Source of the DNA: Eledone cirrhosa | Taxonomy: Eukaryota | DNA: 64,000 nucleotides | NCBI GenBank assembly: GCA_964016885.1 | Contig: OZ024760.1 | Location: 20,398,001 to 20,462,000 of the forward strand | Reading direction: 5' to 3' | Made by a program: the position numbers and the translations under genes | Notes under the pieces: generated by a model | What the model saw: only the letters and a program-made list of their open reading frames with translations | What the model was told of the DNA's origin: nothing | Database searches by the model: none | Shown here: positions 8,584-61,964 of the stretch, one piece after another | How positions within the stretch are numbered: position 1 is the stretch's first letter | How the letters are laid out: each line of letters begins with the position of its first letter

Positions 8584-32480
<23,897 letters not shown>

Positions 32481-34673: not shown

Positions 34674-35271
34674 TTAAGAGGTACTTTTTGGACAGTTCCA
34701 GTCATCAAAGGTTCTCTCAATGGGGTGGATGATCAAACTCATGATAGTTTCAAAGACGGTATAGTAGTCTTGATCAGCGTTCAGATGAATTGACCTTTTG
34801 CCATAGTGGTCCGACAGGGGATCTTCCGTAGCACGGAAAGTGGCCACTCTGACGTTGACCATTTCCTTTGTATGTTTCGGGTTTGTTCTCAGATGAGTCA
34901 TTGTCTCCAAAGTCTGCGGAGGATTGAAATGAAGGTGATGCTGTTGCCCAGTAAATAAGTCTGTCCTCAGAGGGTTTAATCTCTCCATTATGGAGTCCAG
35001 GGATATGTCCAGGAAAAACACCCTGAAAAAAAGAAGACAATAGTGGAGCAAAGGGAAGTGAAGGGAACATTTATTAGTCATATATATAACAAAATTTAAT
35101 ATTAATATAGAAATAGCTTCTACAGGACTAGAACTGCTTCATTCGAAGGAAATCATTGAGTAGCTTAATGTGGTTACCCCCAATTGAACCTGAGACTCAC
35201 ATATATTTTTGAGCATTTTATCGGGCGATGACAATGCTCGAACACGAGTTTGCAGCTATCATATATATATA

Positions 35272-35302
<31 letters not shown>

Positions 35303-38300
35303 CATGTTTAATATTGAAATGGCTTCTACAGGACTAGAACTGTTTCTTGATTTCTTTTGAATGAAACAGTTCTGATCCTGTAAAAGCCATTTCTTTATGA
35401 AGCATGATGTTTACACTCTACTAATGTATTGAGTAACTTACTGTGGTCCCATTCCCGATTGAACCCAGGATTCTCACACATACATATATATAATAATAAT
35501 GATAATAATAATAATAATGAAATTATTGTGTAAAGTGCTCAGGTGCACTACAACTCGTCAATATAGTACATAGAATAATACACAAATGTCAGGGAAGTAC
35601 ATGTTTGTATGTGTTAGCTGTAGTGTTGGCGGATCTCGGGAAGCATGGAGGCCTTAAAGGATGCAGTGTCTCGACAGCTAACAACTGATGCAGGTAGTTT
35701 GTTCCATGCTTCAGCAACTCTGAGCGTGAAAAAATGTTTCCGAAAGTCATGGGAACTGTGCTGTTTTCTTACTTTGTGGGCATGTCCACGTGTGTTAGAC
35801 ACATGGAAATCAAAAAGGCACTCAGGGTTGTTGTTGGCAACATGGTTAACAATTTTGTGGGTGTTTACCAAGTCAGTTGCCAGGCGTCGGAGCTTCAATG
35901 AATCCATGCCCAGGGAAGCAAGGCGCTCAGAGTATGGTAGATGCCTGATGGAGGGTATTCGCTTGGTTGCACGTCTCTGAACAGTTTCCAGTATATATGA
36001 TGGCAGGTTTTAATATCAAGTATAAAAAACATTTTAAAATTGGCTGTTTTTATTTTTATCATAATACAAGGGTAGGTTTGGTACCAGATTGGCAAAATGG
36101 AGGAAGGTCCATGAAATTCAGCTAGAAAGATAAACAAATAACAAAGAGCAACTTGGAAGAGTTAAATGAGATTATACCTTGTTGGTACTAAACCCAGCTC
36201 ATCTAAACCTTTAGCTTCTTCTAAATTCCTTGGAAAACCATGTAGCACCCAACCACATGTCATGCAGTCCAGCTGTGTCAGACGTTCCTTCACAATGAGG
36301 AGGATAACTTCAAGAGGTACTAAATAGGGAGAAGAAAATATATATATAACAATATTAATAATAACAGTTTCTGATTTAGGTACAAGGCCAACCATTTTTA
36401 TTGGGAGGGGCAATTTGATTAAATCGACACCAGTACATTACTGGTACTTTATTTTATCGACTGCGTAAGGATGAAAGGCAAAGTTAACCTCGGTGGGATT
36501 TGAACTCAGACCGTAAAGTGGTGTAACTCTATGCTGCAAAGCATAGGGTCCGACCCTCTACCGATTCTGCCATAATGATGGTTTCTGATTTTAGGCATGG
36601 AACCAACAATTTTGAAGGGAAGGAAAAGTCAATTAAATTGACCCTAATGTGTTATTGGTACTTTATTTTATTGATCGCATAATGATGAAAGTTAAAAACC
36701 AGTAAAAGAGTCAAAGAATGTCATTCACTATAAATATGGTAAGAAATAGGTCGTTCCTGTTACTTACAGGGGGAATCATGGTCTAAATATGCTTTCGCAA
36801 TATCTTCAGTCATCTTTCCATTTTTGATTGCTTGCTTTATCAGTTCAGAACAAGAAACTGGAAAATAAAATATGAAATGGTGATTATTTTAGAAATAAAT
36901 AGACAATTATAATTTTGTATTTTGTATATAGTCACTCAGCAGATCCCGTCAGAAGCAACCATCACCAGCCGGACAGGTGGAAATGGTTGCTTCTGACAGG
37001 ATCTGCTGGAAAGAGTGTTTGAGGACTCTGCCCCATCGGAAAGGTACAGGAAAAAAGAGTTCTCTATTTAGAACACTCCTTTTTCCTGTACCTTTCCGAT
37101 GGAAATACATCATTTAAACAGCTCCAACCGGGAACGATCGAAGCATATTCTATATTACATAAATAATTGGCACCTTCCAGCCCGATAAGTTGAGCACTCT
37201 ACAGTTTCAGGAAATTAACCAATATACCATGGACATACATAACTATATGGCTTAGTGGTTAGAGCATTGGGCTTGCAATTGAAAGGTTGTGAGTTTGATT
37301 CTCGGACCGGGTGATGTGCTGTGTCCTTGAGCAGGACACTTGATTTCATGTTGCTCCAGATACTCAGTTGTAGAAATGAGTTGTAATGTCACTGGTGTCG
37401 AGCTGTGTCGGCCATAGCCTTTCCCTTGGACAACATCAGTGGCATGAAGAAGAGAGACTGGTATGTATGGGTGACTGCAGGTCTTCCTCAAACAACCTTG
37501 CCCAGGCTTGTGCCTCGGAGGGAAACTTTCTAGGTGAAAATCACATGGTCATTGGTGACCAAAGGGGGTCTTTCGATATATATACACGCACAAAAGAGAA
37601 AGAGGGAGAGAGTCCAGCCTATATATAGTTATACGGGGTGCTATAGTTGAAGAAGTGAACAGTTGTCTCTATATTGTGCCTTTCTCTTGTCAATAATACA
37701 AAAGTGTAATTCTTTCTCCATACTTACTGTTGACCAACTGAAAACGTTTTGCTAACAAATGTGCCTGGGTCTTCTTACCACTGCCTGTGGCACCCAGGAG
37801 GATAATGCGGGGTGTATGTGGTGCCATGGACTGTGGCTTCCGGCTCAGAAAGCAAAGTACTGAAATTCAAAATTGAATAATAATAATAATTGTTTCTACT
37901 TTTGGCACAAGGCCAGCAATTACCCAGTAGATTCCTGGTACTAATAATAATAATATTTGTTTCTACTTTAGGCACAAGGCCAGCAATTACCCAGTGCATT
38001 ACTGGTACTTTATTTTATCGACCCCGTAAGGATGAAAGGCAAAGTCAACCTCGGCGGGATTTGAACTCAGATCGTAAAGGGACGTAACTATGCTGGAAAG
38101 CATGGCGTCCGACCCTCCACCGATACTGCCAATCCACCACCCTAGCATGGCGTCCGACCCTCCACCGATACTGCCAATCCACCGCCCTAATTTAATAATT
38201 ATAATAATGACAACAATAATAATTACTAGTATCATAACTATTTCATTAAGTTGGTTTTTAAGATAAAAATAGAAAATGTTCTTCTGTAAAATTATGATGG

Positions 38301-39718
38301 AAAGATTTAATTTAGATATAAACTTTTTTTAATAAAATGAACAGTTTAATCGGAGAAGAGAACATCAGGCAGTTTCAGATGGATTGATATTAAGGTGGTC
38401 AAGATAATGGACTGGCCAGAAATAGCCACAGACCACACAAAAACCAGTTTTAGGTTGATTGATATCAACCTTTTTGATTTCCATGTGTCTAACACATGTG
38501 GGCATGCCCACAAAGTCAGTAAACAGTACAGTTCCCATGACTTTCGGAAACATTTTTTCACGCTCAGAGTTGCTGAAGCATGGAACAAACTACCTACATC
38601 GGTTGTTAGCTGTCGAGACACTGCATCCTTTAAGGCATCCATGGAACAAACTACCTACATCAGTTGTTAGCTGTCGAGACACTGCAACCTTTAAGGCCTC
38701 CATGGAACAAACTACCTACATCGGTTGTTAGCTGTCGAGACACTGCATCCTTTAAGGCCTCCATGCTTCCCGAGATTCGCCAACACTACACCTAATGTTC
38801 CCCCTCCATACACATACACACATGTATACCATGACTCATACACTATTCACTTCCCTGACATTTGTGTATTATTCTATGTACTATACATGCACCTTTGACG
38901 AGTTGTAGTGCACCTGAGCACTTTACACAATAATTTCATTATATATTATATAAAGTGGTCAAGATATTGATCCAGAATAACCAGGAATAGCCACATATCA
39001 AACTAGAGGCAGTTTTAGATGGGTTGGTATCAAAGTGGTCAAGACATTGGCTTGGAATAGCCACAAAGCAGACCAACAACCAAAACTAGCAAAAGAATAA
39101 GAATTAACAACTCCTCACCATTTGATAGAATATCTGCTTTGGGTTGGTCGGCATTTATTTTTTTGTGATTCTTAGGAAAGCGTTGGAGAAGTCCAGGCAA
39201 ATTATATTGGTACTTTAGGTATTTCTGGATTATTTCCGCTTCAGTATATCCTGGGACTTCAACCAAGTTGGCCTTGAGGTCAGAACTCAACGGCCAGTCA
39301 AATGATAAATGGTAGATGTCTGAAAAAATATTATTGAAATCATTGTTTTTTTCTTTTTCTCACAGTCACCTTGTCACTGTCTCACTGTGACATCAGGTCA
39401 CCTTGTCACTGTGTCACTCTGACATCAGGTCACCTTGTCACTGTGACATCAGGTCACCTTGTCACTGTATCACTGTGACATCAGGTCACCTTGTCACTGT
39501 GTCACTGTGACATCAGGTCACCTTGTCACTGTGTCACTGTGATATCAGGTCACCTTGTCACTGTATCACTGTGACATCAGGTCACCTTGTCACTGTATCA
39601 CTGTGACATCAGGTCACCTTGTCACTGTATCACTGTGACATCAGGCCACCCACCTTGACATCATAAATATTTTACAGATCTTTAATTTTCTCTGTGTATG
39701 TATGTGTGTGTGTGTGTG

Positions 39719-39759
<41 letters not shown>

Positions 39760-40608
39760 TTATATGTATATTATCATCATCATCATCATTTTACATCCGT
39801 TTTTCCCTGCTTGCAAGGGTGGGACGGGAACTGATTCTGGCTTGATTTCTACAGCTGGATGCCCTTCCTAACACCAACCTCATTTACAGTGAGTGCTGGG
39901 TGCTTTTTTTTCCGTGGCGCCTACACGTCCATTTTACAGTGTGGGCTGGGTGCTTTTTTGCCGTGGCACCTCCACGACCCCAGTCCCTATCATCTCATTT
40001 CTACAGCTGAGTAAACTGGAGCAATGTGAAATAAAGTGAAATAAGAACTTAAGGCTTGATTAATATTTTAGTTAAATCAGGAGTTGCAACCGGTAGATAA
40101 TATCAGCAATGGAAAAAAAAACAGGGGAAACATTGCATCCTTGGTCCGATTTGACGATCTCCAGCTCACTCAGTGAATGACGTCTAGGATCTTGTAAATC
40201 AAACTCTATGCTGTGAGAGCAATACTGAATCAATTTAACAGTTAAAAGGGAAGTAAATTATGAAACATAGAATAATTATTTCTACTTTTGGCACAAGGCC
40301 GGCAATTATCCCAGTGCATTACTGGTACTTTGTTTTATCGACCTCGTAAGGATGAAAGGCAAAGTTAACCTCGGCGGTATTTGAACTCAGACCATAAAGG
40401 GACGTAACTCTTTGCTGCAAAGCATGGCATCCTACCCTCTACCAATCCATGTGTGAGCGTGAATATGTGTGCTCGGATTACCTTGTACTAATGTTAGAAA
40501 GAATTATAGTATGCGGTAAGAAACTCTCAGCAGAGTTGGACATCAGAAGGTATTCAGAGAAGAAACCTTCCTAAAGTGTTTTGGCCCTATATACATATAT
40601 ACATATAA

Positions 40609-40641
<33 letters not shown>

Positions 40642-43600
40642 ACGAAGGAAATGTGGTAAGGAACCAGGTGGACCATAACGCACCAAAGTACTCAATACTT
40701 AGGGTAGTAGAGTGGGTAATAGGAACGAGTAGGACCCCGACGGCTGAGCTCAAGCCGTTTCGATGGGTTATTCTGGACGAGTCCAGAATTAGCCGTCGAA
40801 ACGGCTTGAGCTCAGCCATTGGGGTCCTATTCGTTCCTATATATATATATATATATATATCATCTCATCATCATCTTCGTTTAACGTCCACTTTCCACAC
40901 TAGCATGGGTTTCAGAGAAGACCCTCTTAAATCAAGAGTTTCAGCCCTTAACTTCTACAGTAGATATATAGGTATTAAACTATATCTTACCTCCATTCCT
41001 TTGATCAACCCGTTTACCAAAGGCTCTCTCTACAAGGATGCTCTCCAAGGCCTCCAAGAAAACTGAGGAATACATTGATATTAAGGAACTTATGTAGTGT
41101 AATATCGTTATGTCAATAAACATATATATATACACAAACACACACACACAAACACACATGTACAAACACACACGCACATATCTATGTGTGTGTTGTGTGT
41201 ATGCATGTGTGTGTTGTGTGTGTGTGTGCTGTGTGTGTGTCTATACAACTAGGTTGACACACTGTAAAGAAATCAAATGTTTAACCTTTTAGCATTTACA
41301 TTACTCTCATTTCATCATCATCATTTCATTTTACATCCGCTTTTTCCCTGCTTGCAAGGATGGGACGGGAACTGATTCTGGCTTGATTTCTACAGCTGAA
41401 TGCCCTTCCTAACACCAACCTCATTTACAGTGAGTGCTGGGTGCTTTTTTGCCGTGGCACCTCCACGACCACTTTGCAATGGAATGATAGGAACCCCAGT
41501 CCCTATCATCTCATTTCTGCAGCTGAGTAAACTGGAGCAATGTGAAATAAAGTGTCTTGCTCAAGGAAACAACACATCACCCGGTCTGAGAATTGAACTC
41601 ACAACCTTTCGATTGCAAGCCCAATGCTCTAACCACTAAGCCATGTGCCTCCATACTCTATATTTGCTATTGTATTTTTTGTGGTAAAGTCTTTATCTCA
41701 CATAATATCTCACAAAATATCGAATCTATGAGATATTTATGTTATTTATTTTGAGAACAATACCTTAATGTAGATATGAGCAGCCAGTTACAGCTGGTTT
41801 GAACAGAAAGAGGTGAGAGAATTCTGGCCGGATATGGCTGGTTTAAATACTAAAGGGGTAAACACAATCTATAAATACAATGATGTTACAATCTGGCTAC
41901 TGAAATAATAATTGTTTCTGATTTAGGCACAAGGCCAACAATTCTGAGAGTGGGGGGAAGTTGATTAAATAAAGTACCAGTAACGCACCTGGTTTCATTA
42001 ATGGTGCTTTATCTAATAGACCCTGTAAGGATGAAAGGCCAAGTTAACCTCGGCGGGATTCGAACTCGGAACGTAAAGGGCCGTAACTCTATGCTGCAAA
42101 GCGTGGTGTCCGACACTCTACCGGTTACTGTGAATCCAACACGCCCTATCATAATGTCGTAATGATAAAGAATGTGGAATGTTTACATCCAAGAAACTTA
42201 CTGCAGTGAGTTGGATAAATACCAGCTTGCTGCATCTTGGCAATAGACTCTTGGTTGGAAAGTAGTCCTTCAAGAACCCAACCATTTCTCTTACACTTGC
42301 CTGTTTCTGTTTCTTCCAACAACACACGCACCCATAATTCCACTGGAATCGGCTGGTGGGCGAAAAAAGAAAAGAAAAAAAATTTTTTTTCTTCTTTCTT
42401 CAAATAAAAACAAATGAATTAAAAATAAATAAAAGAACACGGCAAAAAGCACCCAGGACACACTGTAAATGAGGTTGGCGTTAGGAAGGGTATCCAGCTG
42501 TAGAAAACCAACCAGAGACAGTCCTATATGAATGAGATGCGCTCACCCAACCCAACTTGTCTCTAAATGGGACAAACTCGTCTAACCCATCTTAGCGTGG
42601 AAGATGGACGTTAAATGATATTTTTAATTCAATATATACTTTTGATATATATATATATATCATCATCATCATCGTTTAACATCAATCTTCCACAGTAGCA
42701 TGGGTTAGATGGTTTTGTTCCATTTGATGCGGGATTGGTCGGCAAACCGTGTCTTGCTCGTACGGAAGTGACTCTGGAAGGTTTTCTATGGCTGGATGCC
42801 CTTCCTAACACCAACCACCTTTACAGTGTGGACTGGGAGCCTTTTTGCCGTGTCTCCTGCATGACCACTTTACAGTGTGCACTGGGTGCTTTTTATTGTA
42901 TCACCGACACAGTGGATGGAAATGGGAGGATGGGGTAGGGTGTGTGGGGTGGGGTGTACATTGGGTTAAGATATATATTGATTTCTAACAGTCAAAAGAT
43001 ATTAGACTTGTAGAATATATTGTTAAAGCTGACCCAGGACTAAACTGATAGGGATATATTGTGCTACTGATTTCTATTGATACTGCATGGACACTGCTTC
43101 TATCTGTCTACCAGCGCTCGGACACTACTGGTGGTGCTCAGACACTGCTTCTATCTGTCTACCAGTGCTCAGACACTGCTTGTCTGTCTATCAGTGCTCA
43201 GACACTGCTTGTCTGTCTACCAGTGCTCGGACACTGCTGGTGGTGCTCAGACACTGCTTCTATCTGTCTACCAGTGCTTGGACACTGCTTCTATCAGTCT
43301 ACCAGTGATCGGACACTGCTGGAGGTGCTCAGACACTGCTTCTATCTGTCTACCAGTGCTCGGACACTGCTGGTGGTGCTCAGACACTGCTTCTATCTGT
43401 CTACGAGTGCTCAGACACTGCTTCTATCTGTCTACCAGTGCTTGGACACTGCTGGTGGTGCTTAGACACTGCTTCTATCTGTCTACCAGTGCTCAGACAC
43501 TGCTTCTATCTGTATACCAGCACTCGGACACTTCTGGCGGTGCTCAGACACTGCTTCTCTCTGTCTACCACTGCTCAGACACTGCTTCTATCTGTCTACC

Positions 43601-44490
43601 ATTTCTTGGACACTGCTCTCGTCTGTCTATCAAGTAATTCTTGGACAATGCTACTATCTATCTATTCACCAATTCTTCCTCTCATCTTTGGCCAAGAAAC
43701 CAATGCTATAATTTATCCAGTGTAAAGAATCTTAAATGTACATTCATTAAAATTATGTTGATTCTGGAAAAAGGGCAATTTAAAAATGTTTGCCCTGTTC
43801 CCATCATATGCTCCATTTGACATTAAAGTCGCTTCTAAATGGAAAATTTTCAAAATACTTTTAAAAATCAACTCAAGATCAATTCAAATATGCAAATTAA
43901 AACACACAAAACAAAAAAACAAACATTCTTTGAATTTACCTTTTTTCCGAGTTCCAAAATTTTTAGCTCATATTCTAAATCTGACGGTGCCATTCTTATT
44001 AAATATTTTTCATTCAAGTATACCAAGTTCAGCTTTTTGCAGATCATCATGGCCATGGTGGTCTTCCCTGATGACGGAGGCCCAAAAATGATGACCTTCA
44101 GGACTAAAGGGAGAAAAACAGGAAAATAATTGTTTCTAATTTAGGCACAAGGCCAGCAAATACCCAGTGCATTACTGGTACTTTATTTTATCGACCCCGT
44201 AAGGATGAAAGGCAAAGTTAACCTAGGCGGGATTTGAACTCAGATCGTAAAGGGACGTAACTATGCTGGAAAGCATGGCGTCCGACCCTCTACCGATACT
44301 GCCAATCCACGAATAATGATTTTTTTTATATAGGCACAGGGCCATCAATTTTTTTTATGGGGCGGGGGCGGGAGTCGATTAAATGAACCCCAGTGCATGA
44401 CAGGTACTTTATTTTATCGACCCCGTAAGGATTTGAGCGCAGATCATAAAGGGCCATAACTCCATGCTAGTGTGGTAGTGTATATACAGA

Positions 44491-44521
<31 letters not shown>

Positions 44522-45622
44522 ATGTGTGTGTGCGAGTGTGTGTGTGTGTGTATGTGTATGTGTGTCGTAGTGTAAAGAGATGTGTGTGTGTGTGTGGTAG
44601 TGTAAAGAGATGTGTGTGTGTGTGTGTGGTAGTGTAAAGAGATGTGTGTGTATGTGTGTGGTAGTGTAAAGAGATGTGTGTGTGTATGTATGTGTGGTAG
44701 TGTAAAGAGATGTGTGTGTGTGTATGTGTGTGTGGTAGTGTAAAGAGATGTGTGTGTGTGTGTGTGTGGTAGTGTAAAGAGATGTGTGTGTGTGTGGTAG
44801 TGTAAAGAGATGTGTGTGTGTGTGTGTGTGTGGTAATGTAAAGAGATGTGTGTGTGTGGTAGTGTAAAGAGATGTGTGTGTGTGTGTGTGTGGTAGTGTA
44901 AAGAGATGTGTGTGTGTGTGTGTGTGGTAGTGTAAAGAGATGTGTGTGTGTGTGTGTGGTAGTGTAAAGAGATGTATGTGTGTGTGGTAGTGTAAAGAGA
45001 TGTGTGTGTGTGTGTGTGTGGTAGTGTAAAGAGATGTGTGTGTGTGTGTGGTAGTGTAAAGAGATGTGTGTGTGTGGTAGTGTAAAGAGATGTGTGTGTG
45101 TGTGGTAGTGTAAATAGATGTGTGTGTGTGTGGTAGTGTAAAGAGATGTGTGTGTGTGTGTGTGGTAGTGTAAAGAGATGTGTGTGTGTGTGTGTGTGTG
45201 TGTGAAGGTAAAAGTATGTCCTTACCTTCTTTCAAATCTTTGTTCAGAATATCAATGAGAAATTGCAGAGGTTCTTCTGGTTTATATAGCAACAGCTGCT
45301 CCACTAGAAACTGTAACATCAACAACAACATCAACATCAACAACATCAACAACATCAACAACATCAACATTAACAACAACAACATCAACATCATCAACAT
45401 CAACATCAACATTAACATCAACATTAACATCAACAACATTTACAACATCATCATCAACATCAACATCAACAACATCATCATCATCAACATCAACAACATC
45501 AACAACATCAACATTAACAACAACATCAACATCATCAACATCAACATCAACATTAACATCAACAACATTAACAACATCATCATCAACATCAACATCAACA
45601 ACATCATCATCATCATCATCAT

Positions 45623-45660
<38 letters not shown>

Positions 45661-47482
45661 TTAACAACAACAACATCAACATCATCAACATCAACATCAA
45701 CATTAACATCAACAACATTAACATCATCATCATCATCAACATCAACATCCTCATCATCATCATCATCATCATCAACATCAACATCAACATCAACATCATC
45801 AACATCATCATCATCAACATTAACAACATCATCATCAACAACATGTACTTCCCTGGCATTTGTGTATTATTCTATGTACTATATTGACGAGTTGTAGTGC
45901 ACCTGAGCACTTTACACAATAATTTCATTATTATTATTATTATTATCATAATCAACATCAACAACAACATCAACATTAACAACATCAACATCAACATTAA
46001 CAACATCAACATCAACATTAACAACATCAACATCAACATTAATGTATTATATGGCAGTGATGGGGGGGGGGGGGGGGGGGGGGTATTATGTGACCATGAG
46101 GGGCCAGTGGCCCATATAGTTTGAGAACTTCTGGTTTAGAGGGTCTGATGTCAAGAAAGGGAAACTAAGGACACCCAACCACCCACCTAATGGTAAATAG
46201 AAAGATTAGATCTTAAAATAGTTTCAATGTCAACCATGGAGAGAACTTAATATAATGGTAATGGACAGAGGGGAGGGGGGTCTCCTTAAAATACAACCCA
46301 TGCTAGCATGGAAAAACGGACTGAAAACATGAAGATGTGTGTGTGTGCGTGTGTGCGTCTGTATGTGTATCTGTGTATGTATGTATATGTGCGTGTTTAT
46401 GTATGCGGGTGTGTATGTTTGTGTGTCTGTGTCTGCGTGTATGTCTGTATGTGTATGTGTATCTGTGTATGTATGTATGTATGTATGTATATGTGCGTGT
46501 TTATGTATGCGTGTGTGTATGTTTGTGTGTCTGTGTCTGCGTGTATGTCTGTATGTGTATGTGTATCTGTGTATGTATGTATATGTGCGTGTGTGTATGT
46601 TTGTGTGTCTGTGTCTGCGTGTATGTCTGTATGTGTATGTGTATCTGTGTATGTATGTATATGTGCGTGTTTATGTATGCGGGTGTGTATGTTTGTGTGT
46701 CTGTGTCTGCGTGTATGTCTGTATGTATATGTGTATCTGTGTATGTATGTATATGTGCGTGTTTATGTATGCGGGTGTGTATGTTTGTGTGTCTGTGTCT
46801 GCGTGTATGTGTGTATGTGTATCTGTGTATGTATGTATATGTGCGTGTTTATGTATGCGGGTGTGTATGTTTGTGTGTCCGTGTCTGCGTGTATGTCTGT
46901 ATGTGTATGTGTATGTATGTGAAGCTTATAATGACGATGACATTGACGAAAAAGAAATAATTGTTTCTACTATAGGCACAAGACCAAAACGATACTAAAT
47001 AATTAAATAATTAAATAATAATCAAACAAAACAAAACAAAATAAAAAATATTTATAAGAAGACATCAAACGTGTCTACATCATTTTTAGTTTCGTATAAA
47101 TCTCAATTGGAAGAAAGCAGACGAGATGTAGGGGAATGGCGGGAATTTAAGTGGAGACTTTTTACTTGACTCTCAACATTCATTTTGGTAAGTCTATATG
47201 AATATATATATATATTATTTATTCTTTCGTTTTTAAATAGACATTATATATCATTGAATTATATTTGTTAATTCTAAATAATTTATTCGTAAAAGAAATG
47301 TTTTTTTTTGTTCGTTTTTTTTCAAATGAAATTTATGTTTGATAATAGTTTAAAGAGAAAATATATTGTAAATTGATTTAAATGTATGTATAATGAAATT
47401 ATTGATTTAATAACCTCCAGATATTACCGAAATATATACATATATAATATTATATATATATAATATAATATATATATATAAT

Positions 47483-47532
<50 letters not shown>

Positions 47533-50260
47533 TATATATATATATATAATATATATTTATTAAAATAACATTTATTTTAATAAATATTTGCTCTCAGTTC
47601 TTATATACTTGATATATATTATATGGAGAACAACGTTTCTCTTATACATATGCTGTTGTTAAAAAACACGAGTATTTTCGAGTTTCAAAATCCGAGAACA
47701 CAAAAACGTGAATTAAATTATGGACTCTGGGACTTTGTTGTTCCAAACGAACTACAATGGCCTTATTAGAAAATACGAGACGATTCCAATAAAGTTGTAA
47801 CTCAAACCAACCACATGTCTGTAATATCGAAGCTGAGATCTCTCAACATTTGGAGAAGTAGCGGCTCTGTAGCTGGAGTGACTCTCTCATCTCCAAGCTA
47901 TACACTTCATTGAGTAATGTTACTCCAAAGAGACCTTTCAGATGAACCCTTCTTATTCTTCACCTACTTATTACTGAGAGAATCCTGCTGGATCCCCAAG
48001 CACATTGATGTTATCCAACCATCTTGCTCTGGGTCTCCTGCAGGTTGGTTTTGCCTATAAAATATGTCCAAGAGACATTCTAACCATAAGTAGACGAAGA
48101 AGACTCAAAATAGCCATGTCTTCGACTAAGCAGACACGCGCGCACATGTATGTGTAGATATGTATATATATAATAGAGGCACATGGCTTAGTGGTTAGAG
48201 CATTGGCCTTGCAATCGAAAGGTTGTGAGTTCAATTCTCAGACCGGGTGATGTGTTGTTTCCTTGAGCAAGACACTTTATTTCACATTGCTCCAGTTTAC
48301 TCAGCTGTAGAAATGAGATGATAGGGACTGTGGTCCCTATCATTCCACTGCAAAGTGGTCGTGGAGGTGCCACGGCAAAAAAGCACCCAGCACTCACTGT
48401 AAATGAGGTTGGTGTAAGGAAGGGCATCCAGCTGCAGAAATCAAGCCAGAATCAGTTCCCGTCCCACCCTTGCAAGCAGGGAAAAGTGGACGTGAAATGA
48501 ATGAATGATATATATATATATATATATAATTGATAAAAATAACCAGGATTAAATTACATTATTTCATATACGAACGTGTCTTTGTGATTGGAAATTTACC
48601 AATTGTATTAAACTCCTGAACTGTCATTTACCAATCTGGCTGTGGACTATAAAATCACATTTGAGCTTTGAATTATTCTTTGCCTTTATATAATTGTATT
48701 ATAAACTCATCTAAACTACTTTATATATATATATATATATATACATGATACGTTTCCGAAGAAGACGGTCTGATAGTATAGTTATATAACTGCTATAGAT
48801 TAGTCAATATTATCAACCCTCCGAAACGATCGTAAAACAATGATATGAATAGGTAAAACAACTCGACTTTGTTGTTTTTATTTTCATTGTTAAATTAATA
48901 TCTAACTCTGTATCTAAGGAATTAACTCAGTGGAACATGGAACCTTTCTATGGATTCCACTGGGTTACTCTCCATCAGATTACATTGAGTTCTATCTACG
49001 GTATGGACCCTACCACCAAGGGTAGACCACATTGAAATATATATATATATGTGTGTGTGTTCAATGTATTTTTATCTGGTGGAGCAACCAAGTGGACACT
49101 TTGGTGTCGTATTTTTTTTTTTTTTTATACTTTTTAAACAGATTAGAGTAGTAATTAAAGGGAAATCACTCGTGTCGATATTCGTCTGTTAGTTTTTTCC
49201 GATTTACTTCCCTTTGACTGTTAAATTGTTCTGATTTAACTAAAATATTGATAGCAATTGCAAGTAATTATTGTAGTATGGGGTGGTAGTGGTGTTGGTG
49301 TTGGTAGTGGTAATAGTAACAGTAGTAGTAGTAATTTTTATTTAATATTGTGTTGTTGCCTTAAATATATTTATATTGCTGTTATTGTGCCTAAAGTAGA
49401 AACAATTATTTCTAAAACTCAGGTGTTTCCTCTGTAAATCAATATATCTAGATATATATCATTACCACTGTAGATCAATATATTTACTCCTGTAGATTAA
49501 TAAATTAAAATGTTTAAACCTGTTGATAATAAATAAATGAATTCACGTCTGTAGCATTACATAGCAAATATACGATAAATAAATAAATGTATTTATATAT
49601 ACACACACAACACTTATCGAGTCCTCTGGATTTTGGTCTATTTATTTATTATTACTACTATATATATATATGAAAATAGTCAGCACCCCGACGGCCGGAG
49701 CTCAGCCGTCGGGGTCCTGACGCTTTTCCTATTACCCACTCTACTACCCGACGTATTGAGTACTCTGGTGCGTTATGGTCCACCTGGTATCTTACCACAC
49801 CCTCTTTGTTATATATCACCCCTTCCCTCGTTCGTCTGTTCTGCCTTTGAAAGGGGCAGAACCCTCAGACCTATACCTCATAGTGGCCCCAGGACAGTCG
49901 CACTTCCGCCCACCCTTCATCCGTTCGTCAGTTCTGCCTCTCGGACAGGCAGACCCCCCCCCCTATCTCTTCCCAAGTTCATACTTCCTGATGGCCCCAG
50001 CAGACAGAATAAGAGAATCTCGAGTTAGGAGAATGAGTGGAGTGAAGTAGGAGCCCATTGAGTGGAGTGAAGGTTAGCACGAGACTTAGATGTGAGAAAC
50101 AAAGTGAAACCAGGGAGGAGAGAAGAGATGTGTGTCCTAATTCGTCAATGGCGACAGTGCAGCAGTTAACACTGACCTTCATCATATCAAAGAGTTGGTG
50201 TTCTTCAGCATAGTTACCGAAAGACGTTGGTAACGACATTGGTCTAATGGTGGCGTCCAT
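34674..50260 (-). CDS. AK8: Adenylate kinase 8 (N-terminal docking segment plus two adenylate kinase domains; ciliary/flagellar), 10 coding exons, ~489 aa
   Basis: Exons 50260-50177, 45310-45226, 44103-43940, 42352-42202, 41062-40991, 39319-39119, 37859-37728, 36857-36768, 36319-36178, 35022-34674. GT-AG, phases consistent, 1470 nt. Starts MDATIRPMSLPTSFGNYAEEHQLFDMMK (human [28 protein letters not shown]); P-loops GPPSSGKTT and GATGSGKKT; GWVLHGFPRN; RVFFLDISLDSIMERL. Confidence 0.95.
35510..35990 (-). mobile_element. CR1/L2-like LINE 3' fragment
   Basis: MDSLKLRRLATDL...TRGHAHKV...[14 protein letters not shown] plus the shared 3'UTR and (ATT)n tail. Confidence 0.8.
37247..37575 (+). mobile_element. 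tRNA-derived SINE sharing the family A head but with a different body/tail
   Basis: ATGGCTTAGTGGTTAGAGCATTGGGCTTGCAATTGAAAGGTTGTGAGTTTGATTCTC head, then divergent sequence. Confidence 0.75.
37880..38190 (-). mobile_element. tRNA-derived SINE family B with (AAT)n tail (copies at ~11020-11185, ~17660-17755, ~36360-36575, ~40270-40450, ~41910-42146, ~44125-44310, ~55872-55995)
   Basis: Minus strand reads GGTGGATTGGCAGTATCGG..AGGGTCGG (A-box like)...GAGTTCAAATCCCGCC (B box)...TTTGCCTTTCATCCTTACGGGGTCGATAAAATAAAGTACCAG...GTGCC(T/A)AAAGTAGAAAC(AAT)n. Confidence 0.8.
38465..38945 (+). mobile_element. CR1/L2-like LINE 3' fragment with an internal ~61-bp triplication
   Basis: CATGGAACAAACTACCTACATC...TTTAAGGC repeated 3x inside the same family sequence. 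Confidence 0.8.
39362..39645. repeat. ~32-bp minisatellite (~9 copies)
   Basis: GTGACATCAGGTCACCTTGTCACTGT(G/A)TCACT. Confidence 0.95.
39775..40040 (-). mobile_element. SINE family A, partial
   Basis: Tail and body match; head missing. Confidence 0.8.
40641..40840 (-). mobile_element. Short palindromic Penelope/retrozyme-like element in (TA)n
   Basis: 122-bp inverted repeat 40719-40840 plus conserved tail; related copies at 49672-49812, 62740-62899, 14500-14640; carries a GAAA-stem-GTC hammerhead 3' half. Confidence 0.55.
41308..41653 (-). mobile_element. SINE family A inserted into a piggyBac-like MITE
   Basis: Full-length copy; MITE sequence TACTCT appears on both sides. Confidence 0.85.
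43085..43620. repeat. Minisatellite with alternating ~31/20-bp subunits
   Basis: GACACTGCTTCTATCTGTCTACCAGTGCTC(G/A) / GACACTGCTGGTGGTGCTCA. Confidence 0.9.
44125..44310 (-). mobile_element. SINE family B, full length
   Basis: Near-identical to 37955-38140. Confidence 0.8.
44470..45204. repeat. (TG)n-GTAGTGTAAAGAGA minisatellite
   Basis: About 20 units with variable TG length. Confidence 0.95.
45314..46040. repeat. (AACATC/AAC/ATC)n tract abutting the AK8 exon 2 acceptor
   Basis: Visible triplet/hexamer repeat, interrupted by a CR1-tail fragment at ~45842-45945. Confidence 0.95.
46335..46920. repeat. Complex (TG/TATG) microsatellite with higher-order units
   Basis: Repeated GTGTATCTGTGTATGTATGTATATGTGCGTGTTTATGTATGCGGGTGTG blocks. 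Confidence 0.95.
48175..48508 (+). mobile_element. SINE family A
   Basis: Near-identical to 13362-13705. Confidence 0.9.
48752..48838 (+). ncRNA. Degenerate type I hammerhead ribozyme motif (Penelope-like)
   Basis: GTTT | CCGAAGA | stem II (TGATAGTAT/ATATTATCA) | GAAA CGATCG TA | AAAC. Topology is correct, but there is a core C-for-U change and mismatches at the base of stem II. Confidence 0.45.
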
Positions 50261-50303
50261 CTCGGTGCTTCTTGTCTTTCTTGTTTATCTTCGCCAGATA
50301 CCT

Positions 50304-51065
50304 GTTACTATGGTAACCAAGGACAGATAACTCAGATACCTACAGTGGTGTACGACGAATCTGTGCGGAGAGGTAGATCTATAACTACACCCACTGGTTA
50401 CTATGGTGACCGGTGTAATAAACATAACCAAGGACAGATAACTCAGATACCTACAGTGGTATGAATCTGTATGGAGGTAGATCTATAACTATACCCACTG
50501 GTTTCTATGGTGACCGGTGTAATAAACATAACCAAGGACAGATAACTCAGATACCTACAGTGGTGTATGAATCTGTATGGAGGTAGTAGATCTATAACTA
50601 TACCCACTGGTTTCTATGGCGACCGGTGTAATAAACATAACCAAGGACAGATAACTCAGATACCTACAGTGGTATGAATCTGTATGGAGGTAGATCTATA
50701 ACTATACCCACTGGTTTCTATGGCGACCGGTGTAATAAACATAACCAAGGACAGATAACTCAGATACCTACAGTGGTATGAATCTGTATGGAGGTAGATC
50801 TATAACTATACCTACTGGTTTCTATGGTGACCGGTGTAATAAACATAACCAAGGACAGATAACTCAGATACCTACAGTGGTATGAATCTGTATGGAGGTA
50901 GATCTATAACTACACCCACTGGTTACTATGGTGACCGGTGTAATAAACATAACCAAGGACAGATAAATCAAGATACCTACCACAGTGGTGTGAAACTAAG
51001 TAGAGAAGAAACCCTTCCCTACCCAAACAAATGTTCGGCGCTTAACTCCTGGTTACTATGGTGAT
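50304..51065. promoter_or_regulatory. Cluster of RFX X-box motifs upstream of AK8
   Basis: GTTACTATGGTAAC at 50304-50317 (44 bp upstream of the AK8 ATG), then GTT(A/T)CTATGG(T/C)GAC at 50397, 50501, 50610, 50714, 50818, 50922 and a degenerate copy at 51052. Confidence 0.65.
50315..50990. repeat. ~104-bp tandem repeat, ~6.5 copies
   Basis: Unit AACCAAGGACAGATAACTCAGATACCTACAGTGGTATGAATCTGTATGGAGGTAGATCTATAACTATACCCACTGGTTTCTATGGTGACCGGTGTAATAAACAT. Confidence 0.95.
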
Positions 51066-52856
51066 TGCAGTAATTAGCAGAGCCAAGGACAGATAACTCA
51101 AATACCCCCTTCACACAAATAATTGTTGGAGGTGACTTGTTTGTAAAAGACACCTTCTCCAGCAGCAATCTGGTGTGCATTTGGTCATTGCTGCACATCA
51201 AGGTGAAGATAGCAAGCTGTTGAAGTACTGATCGCTTGGTGATTGGTCTATCATTGAACACGAGTAGTAGAGGGGGTGCATGCCATATAGTACTTGTCGC
51301 AGAGGGAGGTGTAGTTATATATCTCAGATCAACCCCCTCCCAAACTTTATTTAAGCAGTCCACATCCATACAAGTAAAATCACCTCTCCTATAAATAATA
51401 AGTATAGTACCAGGAAAGACTAGTCAGAAGGAGAAAAGCATAAATGAATTGAGAGAGAGAGACTGAGCCTGAGAGGAATCAAATGCTGTGTGCAGGAGAA
51501 GCGGTTGCATTGGTATGGACATGTGGTGTATATGAAGGATGACAGCGGCATAAAAAGGTGCAGAGCAGTAGAAGTCGATGGAAACCACGGATGAAGACCT
51601 GGGATGAGGTGATAAAAGCCGACGACACGCGGCCGTGACCTCTGGCGTCACGCAGTAACACAGAAGAGTAGAGTGGGACTTCTACATGTGACAACCATAT
51701 CCCAACCCCAGGAGAATGTAAAGAGGCCACTATGTTGTGTGAGACTTCTACATGTGATAGACATGTCTGTACCTCATGACAATGTAGAGAGCAGGCCTCT
51801 ACAAATTCAAAATTACCTTTGAAATTACTAATCATACACACGTACGTGTCATTGTTAACCCAAGATGGGTTTAACCAACTCTAAAGTAGTGAGTTAAGAC
51901 TGCAAATATTAAGCACCCATGTATGACAAACACCCGACATAGATATTACCAGCCAGTCACAATTGAAACAGACATTTATGTTAGAAATCAAATTTTACCT
52001 CAACATCCGACTTGATTATGCTGAGCTACATTTTGAGCTGTTTATAGTATCTTGAGGGGGAGAAGGACTCTGGTGAGACTGAATTGAGGATAAGTTTACT
52101 TCATGAGCAGCAGCGTGCATAATGAAACTAATGGAGGAAGCGTCTACTCAGGCCCATACCAGTTCCTTATGAGGCTGCACTTCATAGAGAGTTTCTTATA
52201 GTACAAACCCCAGTTTAAATGAAGTGTTTTGTTCAAGGTTGCGTGGTTTTAAATGATAGGAGCCCCAGTGAAATGAAGTGTCTTGTTCAAGAAAACATCA
52301 TGCCAATTGATCCAGGACCAGATGATTGCAAGTCCAACATCCCAACTACTCAATGTTATTGGAAGGGAACCATAGCTAGCAGCGAAGAAAATAAATAAAA
52401 CCTATCCCTCTTAAATCATGTACAAGAAATTCAGAAAGCAACTTTAAGCGTATAAAAGATTTCAAGTCAGGTTTATTAGGATTCATATATTTAACCTAAA
52501 GTTTGCTTTTACAATGACTGCAGTTTAAAAATGGAAAAAAACAAAAACATTTAAAATCAGATTTCTTTCCAAAGGAAAAAAAAAAAAAAAAGAAAAAAAA
52601 AAAAAACCTTTATTCCAATGTTTCATTTTTATATATATAGTCTTTTACTCAAGCTTCGTATTTCATATTTTCACATCTCTTCACTTTTTATTTCTTTTAA
52701 GTTAAAAGTTTGTTTTTATCATTTCTCTTCCAAATTTAAGCCAGTGTCTTGTGTCATTTCAAGCCAAACTTTCTCATGTGATCCATTTTTTTTGTAATTT
52801 TTTTTCTTTTTAAATCTTTTACAATTTTATTTATGTTTTTTTTTCTATTTAATTAC

Positions 52857-55800
52857 TCAACCAAACTGGAAGGTAAAACCTGAGAAACCTTGATTTTGAT
52901 TTCCTCCAGGTGAGCGGAATGAACAGTTCTGGTTGCCAAAAAACGTTGCAAATATCTGTGAGGGATCTATATGATCTGGAATGAAGGAATTTATATAGAA
53001 AGTAAAAAGAACGAGTAATTTACACCAAAACAACAAAACAAATAAGCTAGTCTGAAAATTACATTGTGGAAGAATGATTTAAACTATTGAAATTGTTATG
53101 ATTTTTTTTTCATCACACCTCTGCAGCATGGAATTGTTTCAGCCACCAGGTAACAAGGGTGTGATGAAAATTGAGTCAAATAGTGTATGTTTAAACAGCT
53201 CTTCCATGATGTAATTACTATTTTAAAAGTTCCTTGAAATATTTTTACCTGTCTTTTGGTACTAAATAGTCTTCTTATGGTGTAAGAAAATATCTTTCCC
53301 CATTTTCTGAATGAACTGCTAAGATTTTAGTTGTAATTGAGAGAGGGGTGGCACTCTAGATACTCTGTCAGTCAGCAATCACTGCTGATCTCTGTCATAT
53401 ACAGAAAGGTTGCAGTGTTGACACCTGGCCAGCCCTTGGACATCGTCAGAGAAGGATTTCCTTTGCCCGTCTTCCTTCTTCAATCATAGTCCTAGAAAAT
53501 AGTTTAGGACAGGGAGTTGTGAAATACACGTTCATACCAGGTAATCCTTCAACTTTTTTATCTGTTGCAAGTAGTTCCAGCCAACAAACATATATATGTA
53601 ATGATGGTGTTGTCTTCTCCACCATATATTAGTGGTTTCTGCCAACCAGCATATATATAGTGACCCTGTCTTCTCTGCTCAGTGGTTTCTGCCAACCAGC
53701 ATATATATAGTATAGTGACCCTGTCTTCTCTGCTCAGTGGTTTCTGCCAACCAGCATATATATAGTATAGTGACCCTGTCTTCTCTGCTCAGTGGTTTCT
53801 TCCAACCAGCATATGTAGTGACTTCTTCCTCCCCATTTATGAGATGCTTGAATGCCTTGACTCTTCATCCTATGTCACCTGTAAGTGACCAGCTTTTACA
53901 TCCATAAAAAGGGATCAAAGTCACCAATGATTTGCACAGTTAGAGCTAGGTGGGTGACCAATCAACCAAACAGCAGCAGTACCCAGCTGTTGGTTCAATA
54001 TAACAGAATAAGTTAAACTGTAACTACTTACCAAAACCAATATCATTGTCGTCCATATCGAAGCCGTTATCGTATCGACATCTTTTTTTACTATCAGAAA
54101 GGACATTAAAAGCTTCTCCGACTTCCTTGAATTTAGCCTCCTCTGATTTTTGAACCTCGGGATTATCATGTGAATGACGATCTGAAGTAGGAGAGAGAGA
54201 CGACAGTGGTAGAGAGAGATGGAAGTAGGAGACAGAAAGAGAGAGACAACAGTGGTAGAGAGAGAAAGAGAGAGACAACAGTGGTAGAGACAGAAAGAGA
54301 GACACGACAGTGGTAGAGACAGAAAGAGAGACACGACAGTGGTAGAGACAGAAAGAGAGAGACCCGACAGTGGTAGAGAGATGGAAGTAGGAGACAGAAA
54401 GAGACACGACAGTGGTAGAGAGAGAAAGAGAGAGACAACAGTGGTAGAGACAGAGAGACACGACAGTGGTAGAGACAGAAAGAGAGAGACAACAGTGGTA
54501 GAGAGACAAAGAGAGACCCGGCAGTGGGAGAGACAACAGTGGTAGAAAGAGATGGAAGTAGAGAACATTTCAGTCAGTGACCCAAGAAAATCTTTTGTTA
54601 ACCCATCTAATACCAACCCAGAGAAAATTGCTAGGACCTACTTCATCATAAATCCTGTGATTAAATTCTACTCAAGGTGGTGAACTGGCAGACTCGGTAG
54701 AGCATCGGGGGGGGAAATGCTTTGTAACATTTAGTTACAACCTTCTACTTTCTGAAGTCATTTAATAATGGTTTCTTATTTAGGCACAAAGCCAACAATT
54801 TCGGGGTGGGGAAAGTCAAATTGACCCCAGTACATTACCAACACTAAGTATGAAAGGTAAAGATAAACTCAGTGGGATTTGAACTAAGAACATTAAGGTA
54901 TAAAACTATATGCTGCCAAGCATGTTGTCTGATGCTCTACTGATTACTGCCAGTTCAACGCCTTTGAGTTATTAAATAATAGTAGCAAATATTTTAATTA
55001 GCAATCTATTTGCATATATCAAACGTTTAAGTGTTTATTTAAATGGACACAAATCATTTCTCCCTGGTTGTCTTTGCCTCTCACAAAGTCCCGTGTTAAA
55101 CACCACTCAAGGGGCTCTCACTTCACTCAACTCCTCTTTTCCCTGGTTGTCTTTACTTCTCACATCTGCCTAAGTCTTGTGCTAAACTCTACTCATGGGG
55201 CTTCCAACTCACTCAACTGCTCTATTCCTTTTCTTACCCAAGATTCCCTTAAATGAGAAGGAATCCTAGTCCTATCATGAAACACAATCTACTGCCACAA
55301 TCTTACACCAGTAAGTCCAACACACTGCTAAGCGACAAAATAAAACTCCTTACCAGGGTGGTGTATTAAGGCCCGTTTCTTGTATGCCTTCTTAATTTCA
55401 TCATCAGTTGCAGTTTTATTAACACCAAGAATCTTGTAGTAATCCTTCCGTTTACTTTTTTTAAGAGTTAGTTTGGCATCAGTCAATAATTGTTTGTTTT
55501 CTGAAGAAACACAAAGAAGAGATTAAAAATAATAAAACAAGGTAAATATTAATTAGACAAAATAAAATATATTTCAATTTGATATTTGTGCCGACTCTTA
55601 TCTATGGTCATAAATCTAAACTATAATAAAGTAAGGAGCGCGGGACTGCGTACGGTTTATAATTTTTTATCACATTAGTAAAATAAGTTGCATTACTTTG
55701 AAATAAACAATGAATGAACATTACATAATTTATCTACTAAATTTCGTGGCTGTTGATTAAATATATTTTGTTAATTTAAAGATTCACTTCTTTAAAATTT

Positions 55801-58800: not shown

Positions 58801-60687
58801 GATGATACTGAAGATTTTCTATATATATGTATATATACACATATATATATATATAAACTGTCACTGACAATATAATCAACATAATATATATATAACTGAC
58901 AATATAAACATTTTTTTTAAATCCTGAATGAAAAGAAGAGAAAGTACCCCAAAGAGTAGAGAAAACCTTACCTTTTTGCTCTCCTTAAGTAGGCTTTTAT
59001 ATAATAATCATCTAACTCAACAGCTTTTGTACAGTCCTCAACTGATTCCTCTAATTTTTTCAACTAGAAAAAACAACAACAGATTTCTGTCTTAGATACA
59101 CCACCATGTTGAAATGATAAAATATAGAGATTATATAACTGATATTTAGTTACCTTTTACTTTGAAAGGGTTTGTGGCATCAAGAAACTATAAAAAATTG
59201 CTCCCCACAAAAAGGATTCAATAATGAGAATGAAGACTGCCATGCCCTTAAAATGCTTCTTTTACTCCATTTTTTTCCCCTTTCTTAAAATTTCCATGCC
59301 AACAGCCTGGGAGGTTCTACAAATGCCAAAGCTACTCCCCCACCCATATCATCTTGTCTACCAGCTCTGAAGAAACAACACACATTGCTTCCTATCTTTT
59401 CATGACATAACAATTTAACCCTTTTGATAGCAACCCAGCTAAGATTATAAAAAAATAAAACCAGCTAAAATTGGTTCAGGTTTTATGAAAAAAAAACCCC
59501 CAGCTATTTTATAAACATTCACATTTAATTTAAAATCTTCCAACAATTTTATATAAGAACCATATGTTAAATTACTATCTTGGAAATGAAATATTTTAAA
59601 TAACTCCACAAAATTCTACATTAATGAATTGAAATAGAGAGTAAGTATTTCATTGAATATACATCCGTGAAAGGGTTAAAAAAACAAAAAAACAATGACT
59701 ACTATGATGGTGGGTTCAATCAAATAATTAAAATATTTGAAACTTACCTTTGCACAGACAGTAGCTCGGTTAAAATACAACTTTGAGTTTGTGTATTTAT
59801 TGTGGGGATCAACTGAAAGAGCTTCTGTATATAGTTTGTAAGCATCTTCTAAATTGCCCATACGGAAAGCTTGGTTTCCTTCTTCCTTTTTATTCATCAT
59901 CATCTTGGCTTTCTGCAATAACAATAATAAGAAAAAGTTAATAAAATATATTAAATATATAAGGGACAGTTGCTTCAAAGAGGGCCCTGCTGGAAGGAGC
60001 ACATGAGGACTTTGCACCCTCTGACCCTCCCAGTCGGCAAAGAAGAAAGTATAACCTAACACAAAGACTGTAGCTATCTTCAGTCAGAATATATCAATAT
60101 CCTTTATTTAGCTCACACATATAAGACTGAACTGGTATGGACATATAGTGCATATGGGATGGTGTTGGGTGAAGTGGAAGGAAGCTGCAGTAGAATGAGG
60201 CCAAGCAAGACCTGGACAGAGGTTGTTGAGAGTTGATTTCAAATAACTGAATTTCAGTTAGGTTTGACAAAGGACTGCAACGAGTGGAGAGATGCTGTGC
60301 TGGGAAAGACCCGTCCAACACTAGTAAGCATGAAAAACAGGCATATGATGATGGTGATGATATTGGTGTTTGGTGTCTTGCTATAACTGTGATTGGTTCC
60401 TCATTCCTCATCCACTAATTTTACTGGTCCTTCTTCCCAGAACACCCACAAAATACTTCACCCTGTCCATCATCTCTGCTTCCATTTACCACAGATACTG
60501 ACCCAACGTGGTCAACAATCTAAAAGGCTATGTAAAGACTAAACTCCATTCCTGTCTCTATTAACTGATAAAAATCTAAAAGTTATTTCACCAGCCCCTG
60601 CCAAAGGTACAGGGTTAGGGTAGGAGAGAAGGTTTGTCTCTCTACGAAAATAACAGACCAGAAAATGTTTTGTGGTAAAATAAAACG

Positions 60688-60725
<38 letters not shown>

Positions 60726-61818: not shown

Positions 61819-61964
61819 CTAGAATAAGAAAAGAAAAGAAGTTTTTGTTATCTGTTGGGTTAATGAAAACATTAGTGGTTGAAGTTAGGTTATTTTACAC
61901 CACATGAATGCACACAAGCACAAGTAGGTTGTGGCTGTGATTCTGAAAGTTCTGTAAGATAAGG

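What the first reader, a model, noticed from the sequence alone, without database searches (positions are those of the whole stretch)
50304..51065. Tandem repeat has amplified an RFX X-box about 8-fold in the AK8 promoter
Seen: a 14-bp palindromic X-box GTTACTATGGTAAC sits 44 bp upstream of the AK8 ATG. Each unit of the adjoining 104-bp tandem array carries a further X-box-like site (GTTACTATGGTGAC 50397/50922, GTTTCTATGGTGAC 50501/50818, GTTTCTATGGCGAC 50610/50714, degenerate 51052). Reverse complements such as GTCGCCATAGAAAC fit the RFX consensus GTYRCCATRGHAAC. Known: RFX factors drive ciliary genes through promoter-proximal X-boxes, and AK8 is an axonemal/flagellar enzyme. Inference: a promoter VNTR acting as a copy-number dial for RFX occupancy (104 bp is ~10 helical turns, so sites would be phased), potentially tuning sperm or motile-cilia energy metabolism.
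Basis: partly seen in the sequence, partly recalled or inferred. Interest (0 to 1): 0.72.

Follow-up and report, generated by a model that had tools for sequence, protein, structure and literature searches.

The report
Repeat-multiplied RFX sites, octopus AK8 promoter
Just in front of an octopus gene for the cilia and sperm-tail enzyme AK8, a 104-base tandem repeat carries seven extra copies of a motif that likely binds the cilia regulator RFX, but similar motif-bearing repeats occur elsewhere in this repeat-rich genome, so it is likely an accident of repeat growth rather than a selected expression dial.

Summary
Observation confirmed. AK8 starts at 50260 (minus strand). A strong X-box lies 44-57 bases upstream, followed by six X-box-like sites in a 104-bp array that is unique in the genome, and one older copy. 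A spliced AK8 contig begins at 50280, so the array is likely proximal promoter. Mouse Ak8 is a direct RFX target, and RFX genes are present here.

The 'dial' reading is not supported. Copy-number variation could not be tested. Helical phasing is weak: 3 of 7 spacings are off-phase and the fit holds only near 10.3 or 10.5 bp/turn. Four of six repeat sites fail the strictest consensus. Nine other X-box-bearing arrays exist in the genome: two lie in introns of non-ciliary genes, and none was placed at a promoter. Control motifs fall into arrays at 0.3-0.5% per site, so one to a few captured ciliary promoters are expected by chance.

Verdict: a real RFX-type promoter caught by an ordinary minisatellite, with extra binding likely and any effect unmeasured. 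The scan noted the same pattern before at promoters in cartilaginous fish (unchecked notes).

The parts
50177..50260 (-). AK8 coding exon 1 (MDATIRPMSL...FDMMK), then GT donor
   Evidence: 75% identical to a cuttlefish protein labelled adk (P0005), 50% to turtle AK8 (P0002)
34700..50260 (-). AK8 gene, at least 11 coding exons matched
   Evidence: tblastn; homologue names; ADK Pfam
50261..50280 (-). 5' untranslated leader seen in a spliced contig; the start site is at or upstream of 50280 (contigs cannot show a start)
   Evidence: run X4, record 32: 1589 nt, first 104 nt on 50177-50280
50282..50288 (-). Forkhead-type motif ATAAACA between X-box and ATG (consensus RYAAAYA recalled)
   Evidence: common motif, 206 in the window
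50304..50317 (.). Proximal X-box GTTACTATGGTAAC; fits all six published consensus strings tested
   Evidence: consensus strings from PMC2375033
50314..50980 (.). 104-bp tandem array, 6.3 copies, found only here in the genome
50397..50935 (.). Six repeat-borne X-box-like sites (50397, 50501, 50610, 50714, 50818, 50922); the outer two fit all six consensus strings, the inner four fail the two strictest
50418..50949 (+). One forkhead-type ATAAACA per unit, 7 bp behind each box (50418, 50522, 50631, 50735, 50839, 50943)
   Evidence: chance of one in 104 bp about 0.28
51052..51109 (.). Older diverged copy of the module: box 13 of 14 identical, spacer 10 of 17, following block 24 of 27
51435..51670 (.). 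Fragment of a high-copy dispersed repeat, not part of the element
   Evidence: very high depth and loose ends
52600..52966 (-). Last exon and 3' UTR of the upstream neighbour, a TPR plus J-domain gene (DNAJC7-like, name recalled); stop 52857-52859, AATAAA 52609-52614

Best explanation
This is the AK8 promoter region with a strong X-box 44 bases before the start codon, and a local minisatellite that copied a box-containing module six more times, likely as a by-product of the repeat growth common in this genome; RFX likely binds some of the extra sites, with a likely small and unselected effect on expression. Shown: gene, sites, array, uniqueness of the unit, transcript cover up to 50280. Inferred history: an early duplication of a roughly 60-bp module (box, spacer, CCAAGGACAGATAA block) gave the proximal, middle and distal copies, the proximal one lacking 18 bp of spacer; recent slippage or unequal exchange then amplified the middle copy with its flank into near-identical 104-bp units. 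Inferred mechanism: an RFX1/2/3-type dimer on the proximal box sets the start site in ciliated cells and spermatocytes, and the weaker upstream copies add occupancy.
For: The window holds 14 complex minisatellites covering 8.4% of it. The same X-box pattern occurs in pairs at 10 loci genome-wide (59 of 59 matches listed); all 9 others lie in tandem repeats with unrelated units (3 of 55 pairs near chance level). Two are in introns of an EF-hand myosin-light-chain-like gene and a CHCH-domain gene. Control 14-mers fall into arrays at 0.26-0.53% per site, X-boxes at 0.34-1.06%; for 412 target promoters that predicts 1-4 captured ones. Proximal box: fits all six consensus strings; spliced contig starts 24 nt downstream of it; mouse Ak8 has RFX1 and RFX3 peaks at -1 and -16 and falls in Rfx3 and Rfx2 mutants, logFC -1.39 and -1.50 (PMC7498320 supplement); an unnamed marine animal AK8 has a half-perfect box at -61 and a forkhead motif at -43 (L080); RFX DNA-binding domains at 5 loci. 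Synthetic RFX motif repeats have promoter and enhancer activity in mouse neurons (PMC4971761 passages).
Against: The old copy keeps the box better than the spacer (13 of 14 against 10 of 17, Fisher p 0.045, boundaries partly chosen afterwards). Both substitutions inside the repeat boxes keep a published consensus, although 18 of 42 possible changes would. X-box arrays outnumber control arrays before normalising (9 loci against 5-8 loci over 7 control patterns), and one of four normalised comparisons stays at p 0.024. The second metagenome AK8 locus (L076) has no half-site within 300 bp. No binding or expression data exist for this species in my calls.
Confidence: 0.52

Rival explanations
1. 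Selected homotypic RFX cluster: the extra sites were kept because they raise AK8 output, and copy number varies between animals and sets expression, as for the human TRIB3 33-bp repeat.
For: Five of eight sites fall within 500 bp of 50280, the 'robust' window for human X-boxes (PMC5838959 passages). The module was duplicated in two rounds and the box is better kept than the spacer. Each unit also has a forkhead-type motif. At 10.5 bp/turn only 3 of 51 periods give as much phase coherence. Unchecked scan notes report such arrays at ciliary promoters in other animals.
Against: No variation shown; contig depths fit a single array layout in the one sample. Four of six repeat sites are weaker than the proximal one. 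A 109-bp unit and the 93 and 130 spacings break phase, and coherence is reached by 23 of 51 periods at 10.4 and 17 of 51 at 10.6. Other X-box arrays have periods 33-61 with no helical preference.
Confidence: 0.17
2. Inert passenger: only the proximal box is used, and the array is nucleosomal or methylated and unbound.
For: The array is CpG-poor (o/e 0.41, window 0.43) and the inner sites fail the strict consensus. In Drosophila an X-box upstream of a gene was not predictive without conservation (PMC2375033 passages). Nine of 15 sampled perfect X-boxes sit in the first ORF of one dispersed retroelement-like family, so the motif alone does not mark a promoter here.
Against: The two outer repeat sites fit every consensus tested, and the nearest is only 93 bp from the proximal box.
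Confidence: 0.2
3. Dampening element: the weaker distal boxes compete for RFX, or start upstream transcripts whose leaders carry one short upstream ORF per unit, lowering AK8 output.
For: In C. elegans F25B4.2 a weak distal X-box represses and its deletion raises expression (PMC3245922 parts 1, 3, 4 of 6). Each unit has an ATG on the AK8 strand opening a 27-46 codon ORF that stops before the AK8 start. RFX repeats can act as promoters.
Against: No X4 contig lay on the units examined; the AK8 contig starts at 50280. This is one run of unknown tissue.
Confidence: 0.1

Closest known systems
Human TRIB3 promoter 33-bp VNTR (PMC7425993; abstract and outline seen)
   Same: A conserved promoter transcription-factor element tandemly multiplied in one lineage, next to the start of the gene.
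   Different: TRIB3 has shown alleles of 1-5 copies and a shown copy-number effect; here neither is shown, the unit is 104 bp, and the factor is RFX.
RFX X-box promoters of motile-cilia genes, including mouse Ak8 (PMC7498320 supplement rows; 10.1101/085571 passages)
   Same: Strong 14-bp X-box within 60 bp of the start of AK8; RFX motifs are the top motif of ciliary promoters from sea anemone to human.
   Different: Mouse Ak8 has two peaks per factor (about -1 to -16 and -413 to -423), and no repeat is mentioned in the rows I saw. Here eight sites come from tandem copying.
Multiple X-boxes in C. elegans promoters, F25B4.2 (PMC3245922; parts 1, 3, 4 of 6 read)
   Same: Strong proximal box plus weaker distal boxes in one promoter.
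   Different: Two or three independently evolved boxes, tested in vivo, distal one repressive; here repeat-made copies, untested.
Synthetic tandem RFX motif reporters (PMC4971761; passages read)
   Same: Repeated RFX motifs, in tandem or spaced.
   Different: Artificial 87-bp constructs with close spacing in mouse neurons; here natural, 104-bp spacing, mollusc.

Membership tests
RFX X-box promoter element | 14-bp imperfect palindrome matching published consensus | tested here: met
   Proximal site fits 6 of 6 strings, two repeat sites 6 of 6, four repeat sites 4 of 6, old copy 3 of 6 (strings)
RFX X-box promoter element | Close to the transcription start | tested here: inconclusive
   Spliced contig begins 24 nt downstream of the box; contigs cannot show a start, one run only
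RFX X-box promoter element | Conserved at the orthologous promoter | tested here: inconclusive
   Half-perfect box at -61 in L080, none in L076 (1 of 2 genomic loci with exon 1, of 11 fetched); mouse ChIP peaks; no other cephalopod promoter available
RFX X-box promoter element | RFX protein encoded in the genome | tested here: met
   PF02257 over cut-off, 7 matches at 5 loci
RFX X-box promoter element | Bound by RFX and needed for expression | not testable with these tools
   needs EMSA, ChIP or reporter
Functional promoter VNTR (TRIB3 type) | Tandem unit contains a factor site and lies in the promoter | tested here: met
Functional promoter VNTR (TRIB3 type) | Copy number varies between individuals | tested here: inconclusive
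   Only one sample covers the array; RAD reads of two other samples stop near 51130
Functional promoter VNTR (TRIB3 type) | Expression scales with copy number | not testable with these tools
   no paired genotype and expression data
Helically phased site array | Spacings are whole numbers of turns | tested here: not met
   8.86, 9.90, 10.38, 9.90, 9.90, 9.90, 12.38 turns; coherence depends on the assumed pitch
Dispersed (transposon-borne) repeat | Unit found at other loci | tested here: not met
   7 of 7 genome matches lie in this array (that search skips very common words)

The most novel reading that the evidence does not exclude
RFX sites are preferentially captured by newborn minisatellites in animal genomes (through open germline chromatin, or selection), repeatedly turning single X-boxes at ciliary promoters into site clusters whose copy number tunes expression; octopus AK8 would be one natural, testable dose series.
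Probability: 0.15. Interest if true: 0.65.

Novelty: new member of a known kind. Interest (0 to 1): 0.3.

Why it matters
If copy number varies and sets AK8 level, this would be a natural dose series for RFX site number at a sperm and cilia gene, and a first concrete RFX target promoter in a cephalopod as far as my searches go (searches listed no such paper). On present evidence it mainly shows how a minisatellite-rich genome multiplies regulatory sites by chance, and it supplies the background rate against which similar findings should be judged.

Tried and rejected
Genome-wide excess of perfect X-boxes (1475 against 78) as evidence of selection: rejected, because 9 of 15 sampled sites (the first on C1) belong to one dispersed family; the class without it is 848 against 595. 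Array as 3' UTR of the upstream gene: the X4 contig runs 52619-52967 next to an AATAAA, with no cover nearer the array apart from repeats (absence in contigs is weak). Divergent partner gene sharing the promoter: the neighbour is on the same strand. Common origin of the X-box arrays: no homology outside the box. No run was on record as RNA; X4 is treated as RNA only because its contigs are spliced. Genes near the other arrays: 134 of 309 listed ORFs, picked by length and nearness, went to Pfam and 4 hit; five arrays (L067, L068, L070, L071, L074) stay unplaced, and the gene around L073 was not identified. The phase count printed (0 of 51) was a rounding error, corrected. The half-site pattern was mis-specified, corrected. 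NR5A-like CCAAGGACA and GATA-like AGATAA in each unit (consensus recalled) are leads only. No position weight matrix was available, so consensus strings were used. The search on minisatellites and recombination hotspots was seen as a listing only and is not used.

Full report
Setting. The window is G000:C21:20398001-20462000 of a 3.0-Gb genome. An exon search hit proteins named adenylate kinase 8 from Octopus (73-75% identity), Argonauta and a turtle, and a cuttlefish 'adk', so the animal is likely an octopod. tblastn places AK8 on the minus strand from ATG 50260 to about 34700. The upstream neighbour is a TPR plus J-domain gene on the same strand (DNAJC7 by recall), whose stop lies 2.6 kb from the AK8 start. 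AK8 is part of an axonemal nucleotide module in mammals (PMC7606486, abstract).

Observation. All eight sites and the array are as described. The unit matches nowhere else in the genome (7 of 7 matches in this array). Contigs from three DNA runs of one sample show the unit types at depth ratios of about 4, 2 and 1, as in the assembly, so the array is real; the tool warns that such depths are not copy numbers, and this may be the assembly's own sample.

Position. Run X4 is not on record as RNA but gives spliced contigs. One of 1589 nt lies on 50177-50280 and stops at the exon 1 donor. Another covers the neighbour's last exon to 52619, beside an AATAAA. The AK8 start is therefore at or upstream of 50280, likely just below the X-box, and the array is likely promoter rather than transcript. 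This rests on one run of unknown tissue. Five of the eight sites lie within 500 bp of 50280, the robust window for human X-boxes (PMC5838959, passages).

Site quality. Against six consensus strings from PMC2375033 (passages), the proximal site and the two outer repeat sites fit all six, the four inner sites four, and the old copy three. Mouse Ak8 has RFX1 and RFX3 peaks at its start and is down in Rfx2 and Rfx3 mutants (PMC7498320, supplement rows and legends). RFX motifs top ciliary promoters across animals, while forkhead motifs are poorly conserved there (10.1101/085571, passages). The genome encodes RFX domains at five loci. Of 11 metagenome AK8 loci, two genomic ones include exon 1: L080 has CCTGTCATAGCAAC at -61 and a forkhead motif at -43, close to the octopus layout (-57, -28); L076 has no half-site within 300 bp. 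The proximal box is likely a real RFX element (about 85%, my estimate).

History. The proximal box, the units and the copy at 51052 share box plus CCAAGGACAGATAA block; the proximal copy lacks 18 bp of spacer (read). The old copy keeps 13 of 14 box letters, 10 of 17 spacer letters and 24 of 27 in the following block (p 0.045), a weak sign of constraint. Among five complete units four columns vary, two inside the box. Both keep a published consensus, but 18 of 42 changes would, and one weakens the site.

Phasing. Spacings are 8.86, 9.90, 10.38, 9.90, 9.90, 9.90 and 12.38 turns. Coherence of the six repeat sites is 0.71 at 10.5 bp/turn (3 of 51 periods reach it) and 0.65 at 10.3 (6 of 51), but 0.34 at 10.4 (23 of 51) and 0.46 at 10.6 (17 of 51). 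A half-turn insertion in one unit was tolerated. The other X-box arrays deviate from whole turns by -5 to +5 bp. Phasing is not supported.

Background. Tandem repeats cover 20.5% of the window, and 14 complex minisatellites 8.4%. Pairs of GTYRCCATRGHAAC 90-120 bp apart occur at 10 loci, all 59 matches listed; this search misses some periods. All nine other loci are tandem arrays of period 33-61, unrelated outside the box. One lies in an intron of an EF-hand, myosin-light-chain-like gene, one in an intron of a CHCH-domain gene, one between exon-like stretches of an unidentified gene, and one is a 58-bp satellite with only five matching units; five have no gene identified within 5 kb (134 of 309 ORFs scanned). 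A looser pattern adds a 45-bp satellite with 192 matches in 10 kb. Seven control patterns gave 1, 0, 0, 2, 0, 4 and 4 matches, or 5-8 loci. For the three controls with single-site counts (658, 369, 111) the rate is 0.26-0.53% per site, against 0.34% (all 2680 X-box matches) to 1.06% (848 matches of the class without the dispersed family); p ranges from 0.024 to 0.87. An excess of X-boxes in minisatellites is possible but not established. At these rates, 412 target promoters (the Drosophila count in PMC2375033) would give 1-4 captured boxes, so the AK8 case needs no selection.

Mechanism. Shown: gene, sites, array, uniqueness, transcript cover. Inferred: an RFX dimer on the proximal box drives AK8 in ciliated cells and spermatocytes; repeat growth copied a neighbouring weaker box; RFX likely occupies some copies. 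Direction is open: synthetic RFX repeats activate (PMC4971761, passages), a weak distal box represses in C. elegans (PMC3245922, parts 1, 3, 4 of 6), and each unit would add an upstream ORF if transcription began inside the array.

Known kinds and novelty. It is built like the TRIB3 promoter repeat (PMC7425993, abstract and outline) but lacks tested variation and effect, so it is not filed as a functional VNTR. Searches for VNTR, promoter, RFX and copy number, octopus promoter minisatellite (35), RFX, X-box and minisatellite (53, no paper), tandem repeats with RFX motif (54) and cephalopod, RFX and cilia (71) listed no report of this locus or of natural X-box arrays; these were listings, and the library lacks most subscription papers. 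Supplements of the bioRxiv paper were not seen and may list Ak8 binding. Earlier notes of this scan describe X-box arrays at promoters in cartilaginous fish; they are unchecked and count as leads only. Verdict: new member of a known kind, interest 0.3.

Noticed in passing
L016, L020, L022-L029 (G000:C1), around position 1501: A dispersed retroelement-like family carries a perfect X-box (GTTGCCATGGCAAC or a one-letter variant) inside its first long ORF; 9 or more of 15 sampled strict X-boxes belong to it, so it likely supplies hundreds of sites genome-wide.
   Followed up: partly
L062:9381-10000 and L065:1-10000 (G000:C1, 10.55 and 30.25 Mb): A 45-bp satellite with an X-box-like GTCACTATAGTAAC in nearly every unit, 192 matches in 10 kb.
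   Followed up: partly
L069:4417-6591: A 61-bp array with 32 X-box-like sites in the last intron of a CHCH-domain gene (CHCHD1-like by recall).
   Followed up: partly
L072:4853-5092: A degenerate X-box-rich repeat fills an intron of a myosin-regulatory-light-chain-like gene.
   Followed up: partly
L074:4317-5488, L071:4476-5605: 33-bp and 47-bp arrays with 30 and 22 X-box-like sites; no gene found within 5 kb.
   Followed up: partly
L064:4995-5037: Two X-box-like sites as an inverted pair 29 bp apart in non-repetitive DNA.
   Followed up: no
window 50214-50226: A 13-bp loose X-box match (GTTACCGAAAGAC) inside AK8 exon 1, next to a TGGTAAC half-site.
   Followed up: no
window 16450-17223 and 27252-27493: Two separate arrays share the same 48-bp unit.
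   Followed up: no
window 52600-61825: TPR plus J-domain gene (DNAJC7-like), 8 exons seen, spliced contig in run X4.
   Followed up: partly
L080, ATG at 2444: An unnamed marine animal's AK8 has the same order of box and forkhead motif before the start codon as the octopus gene.
   Followed up: yes
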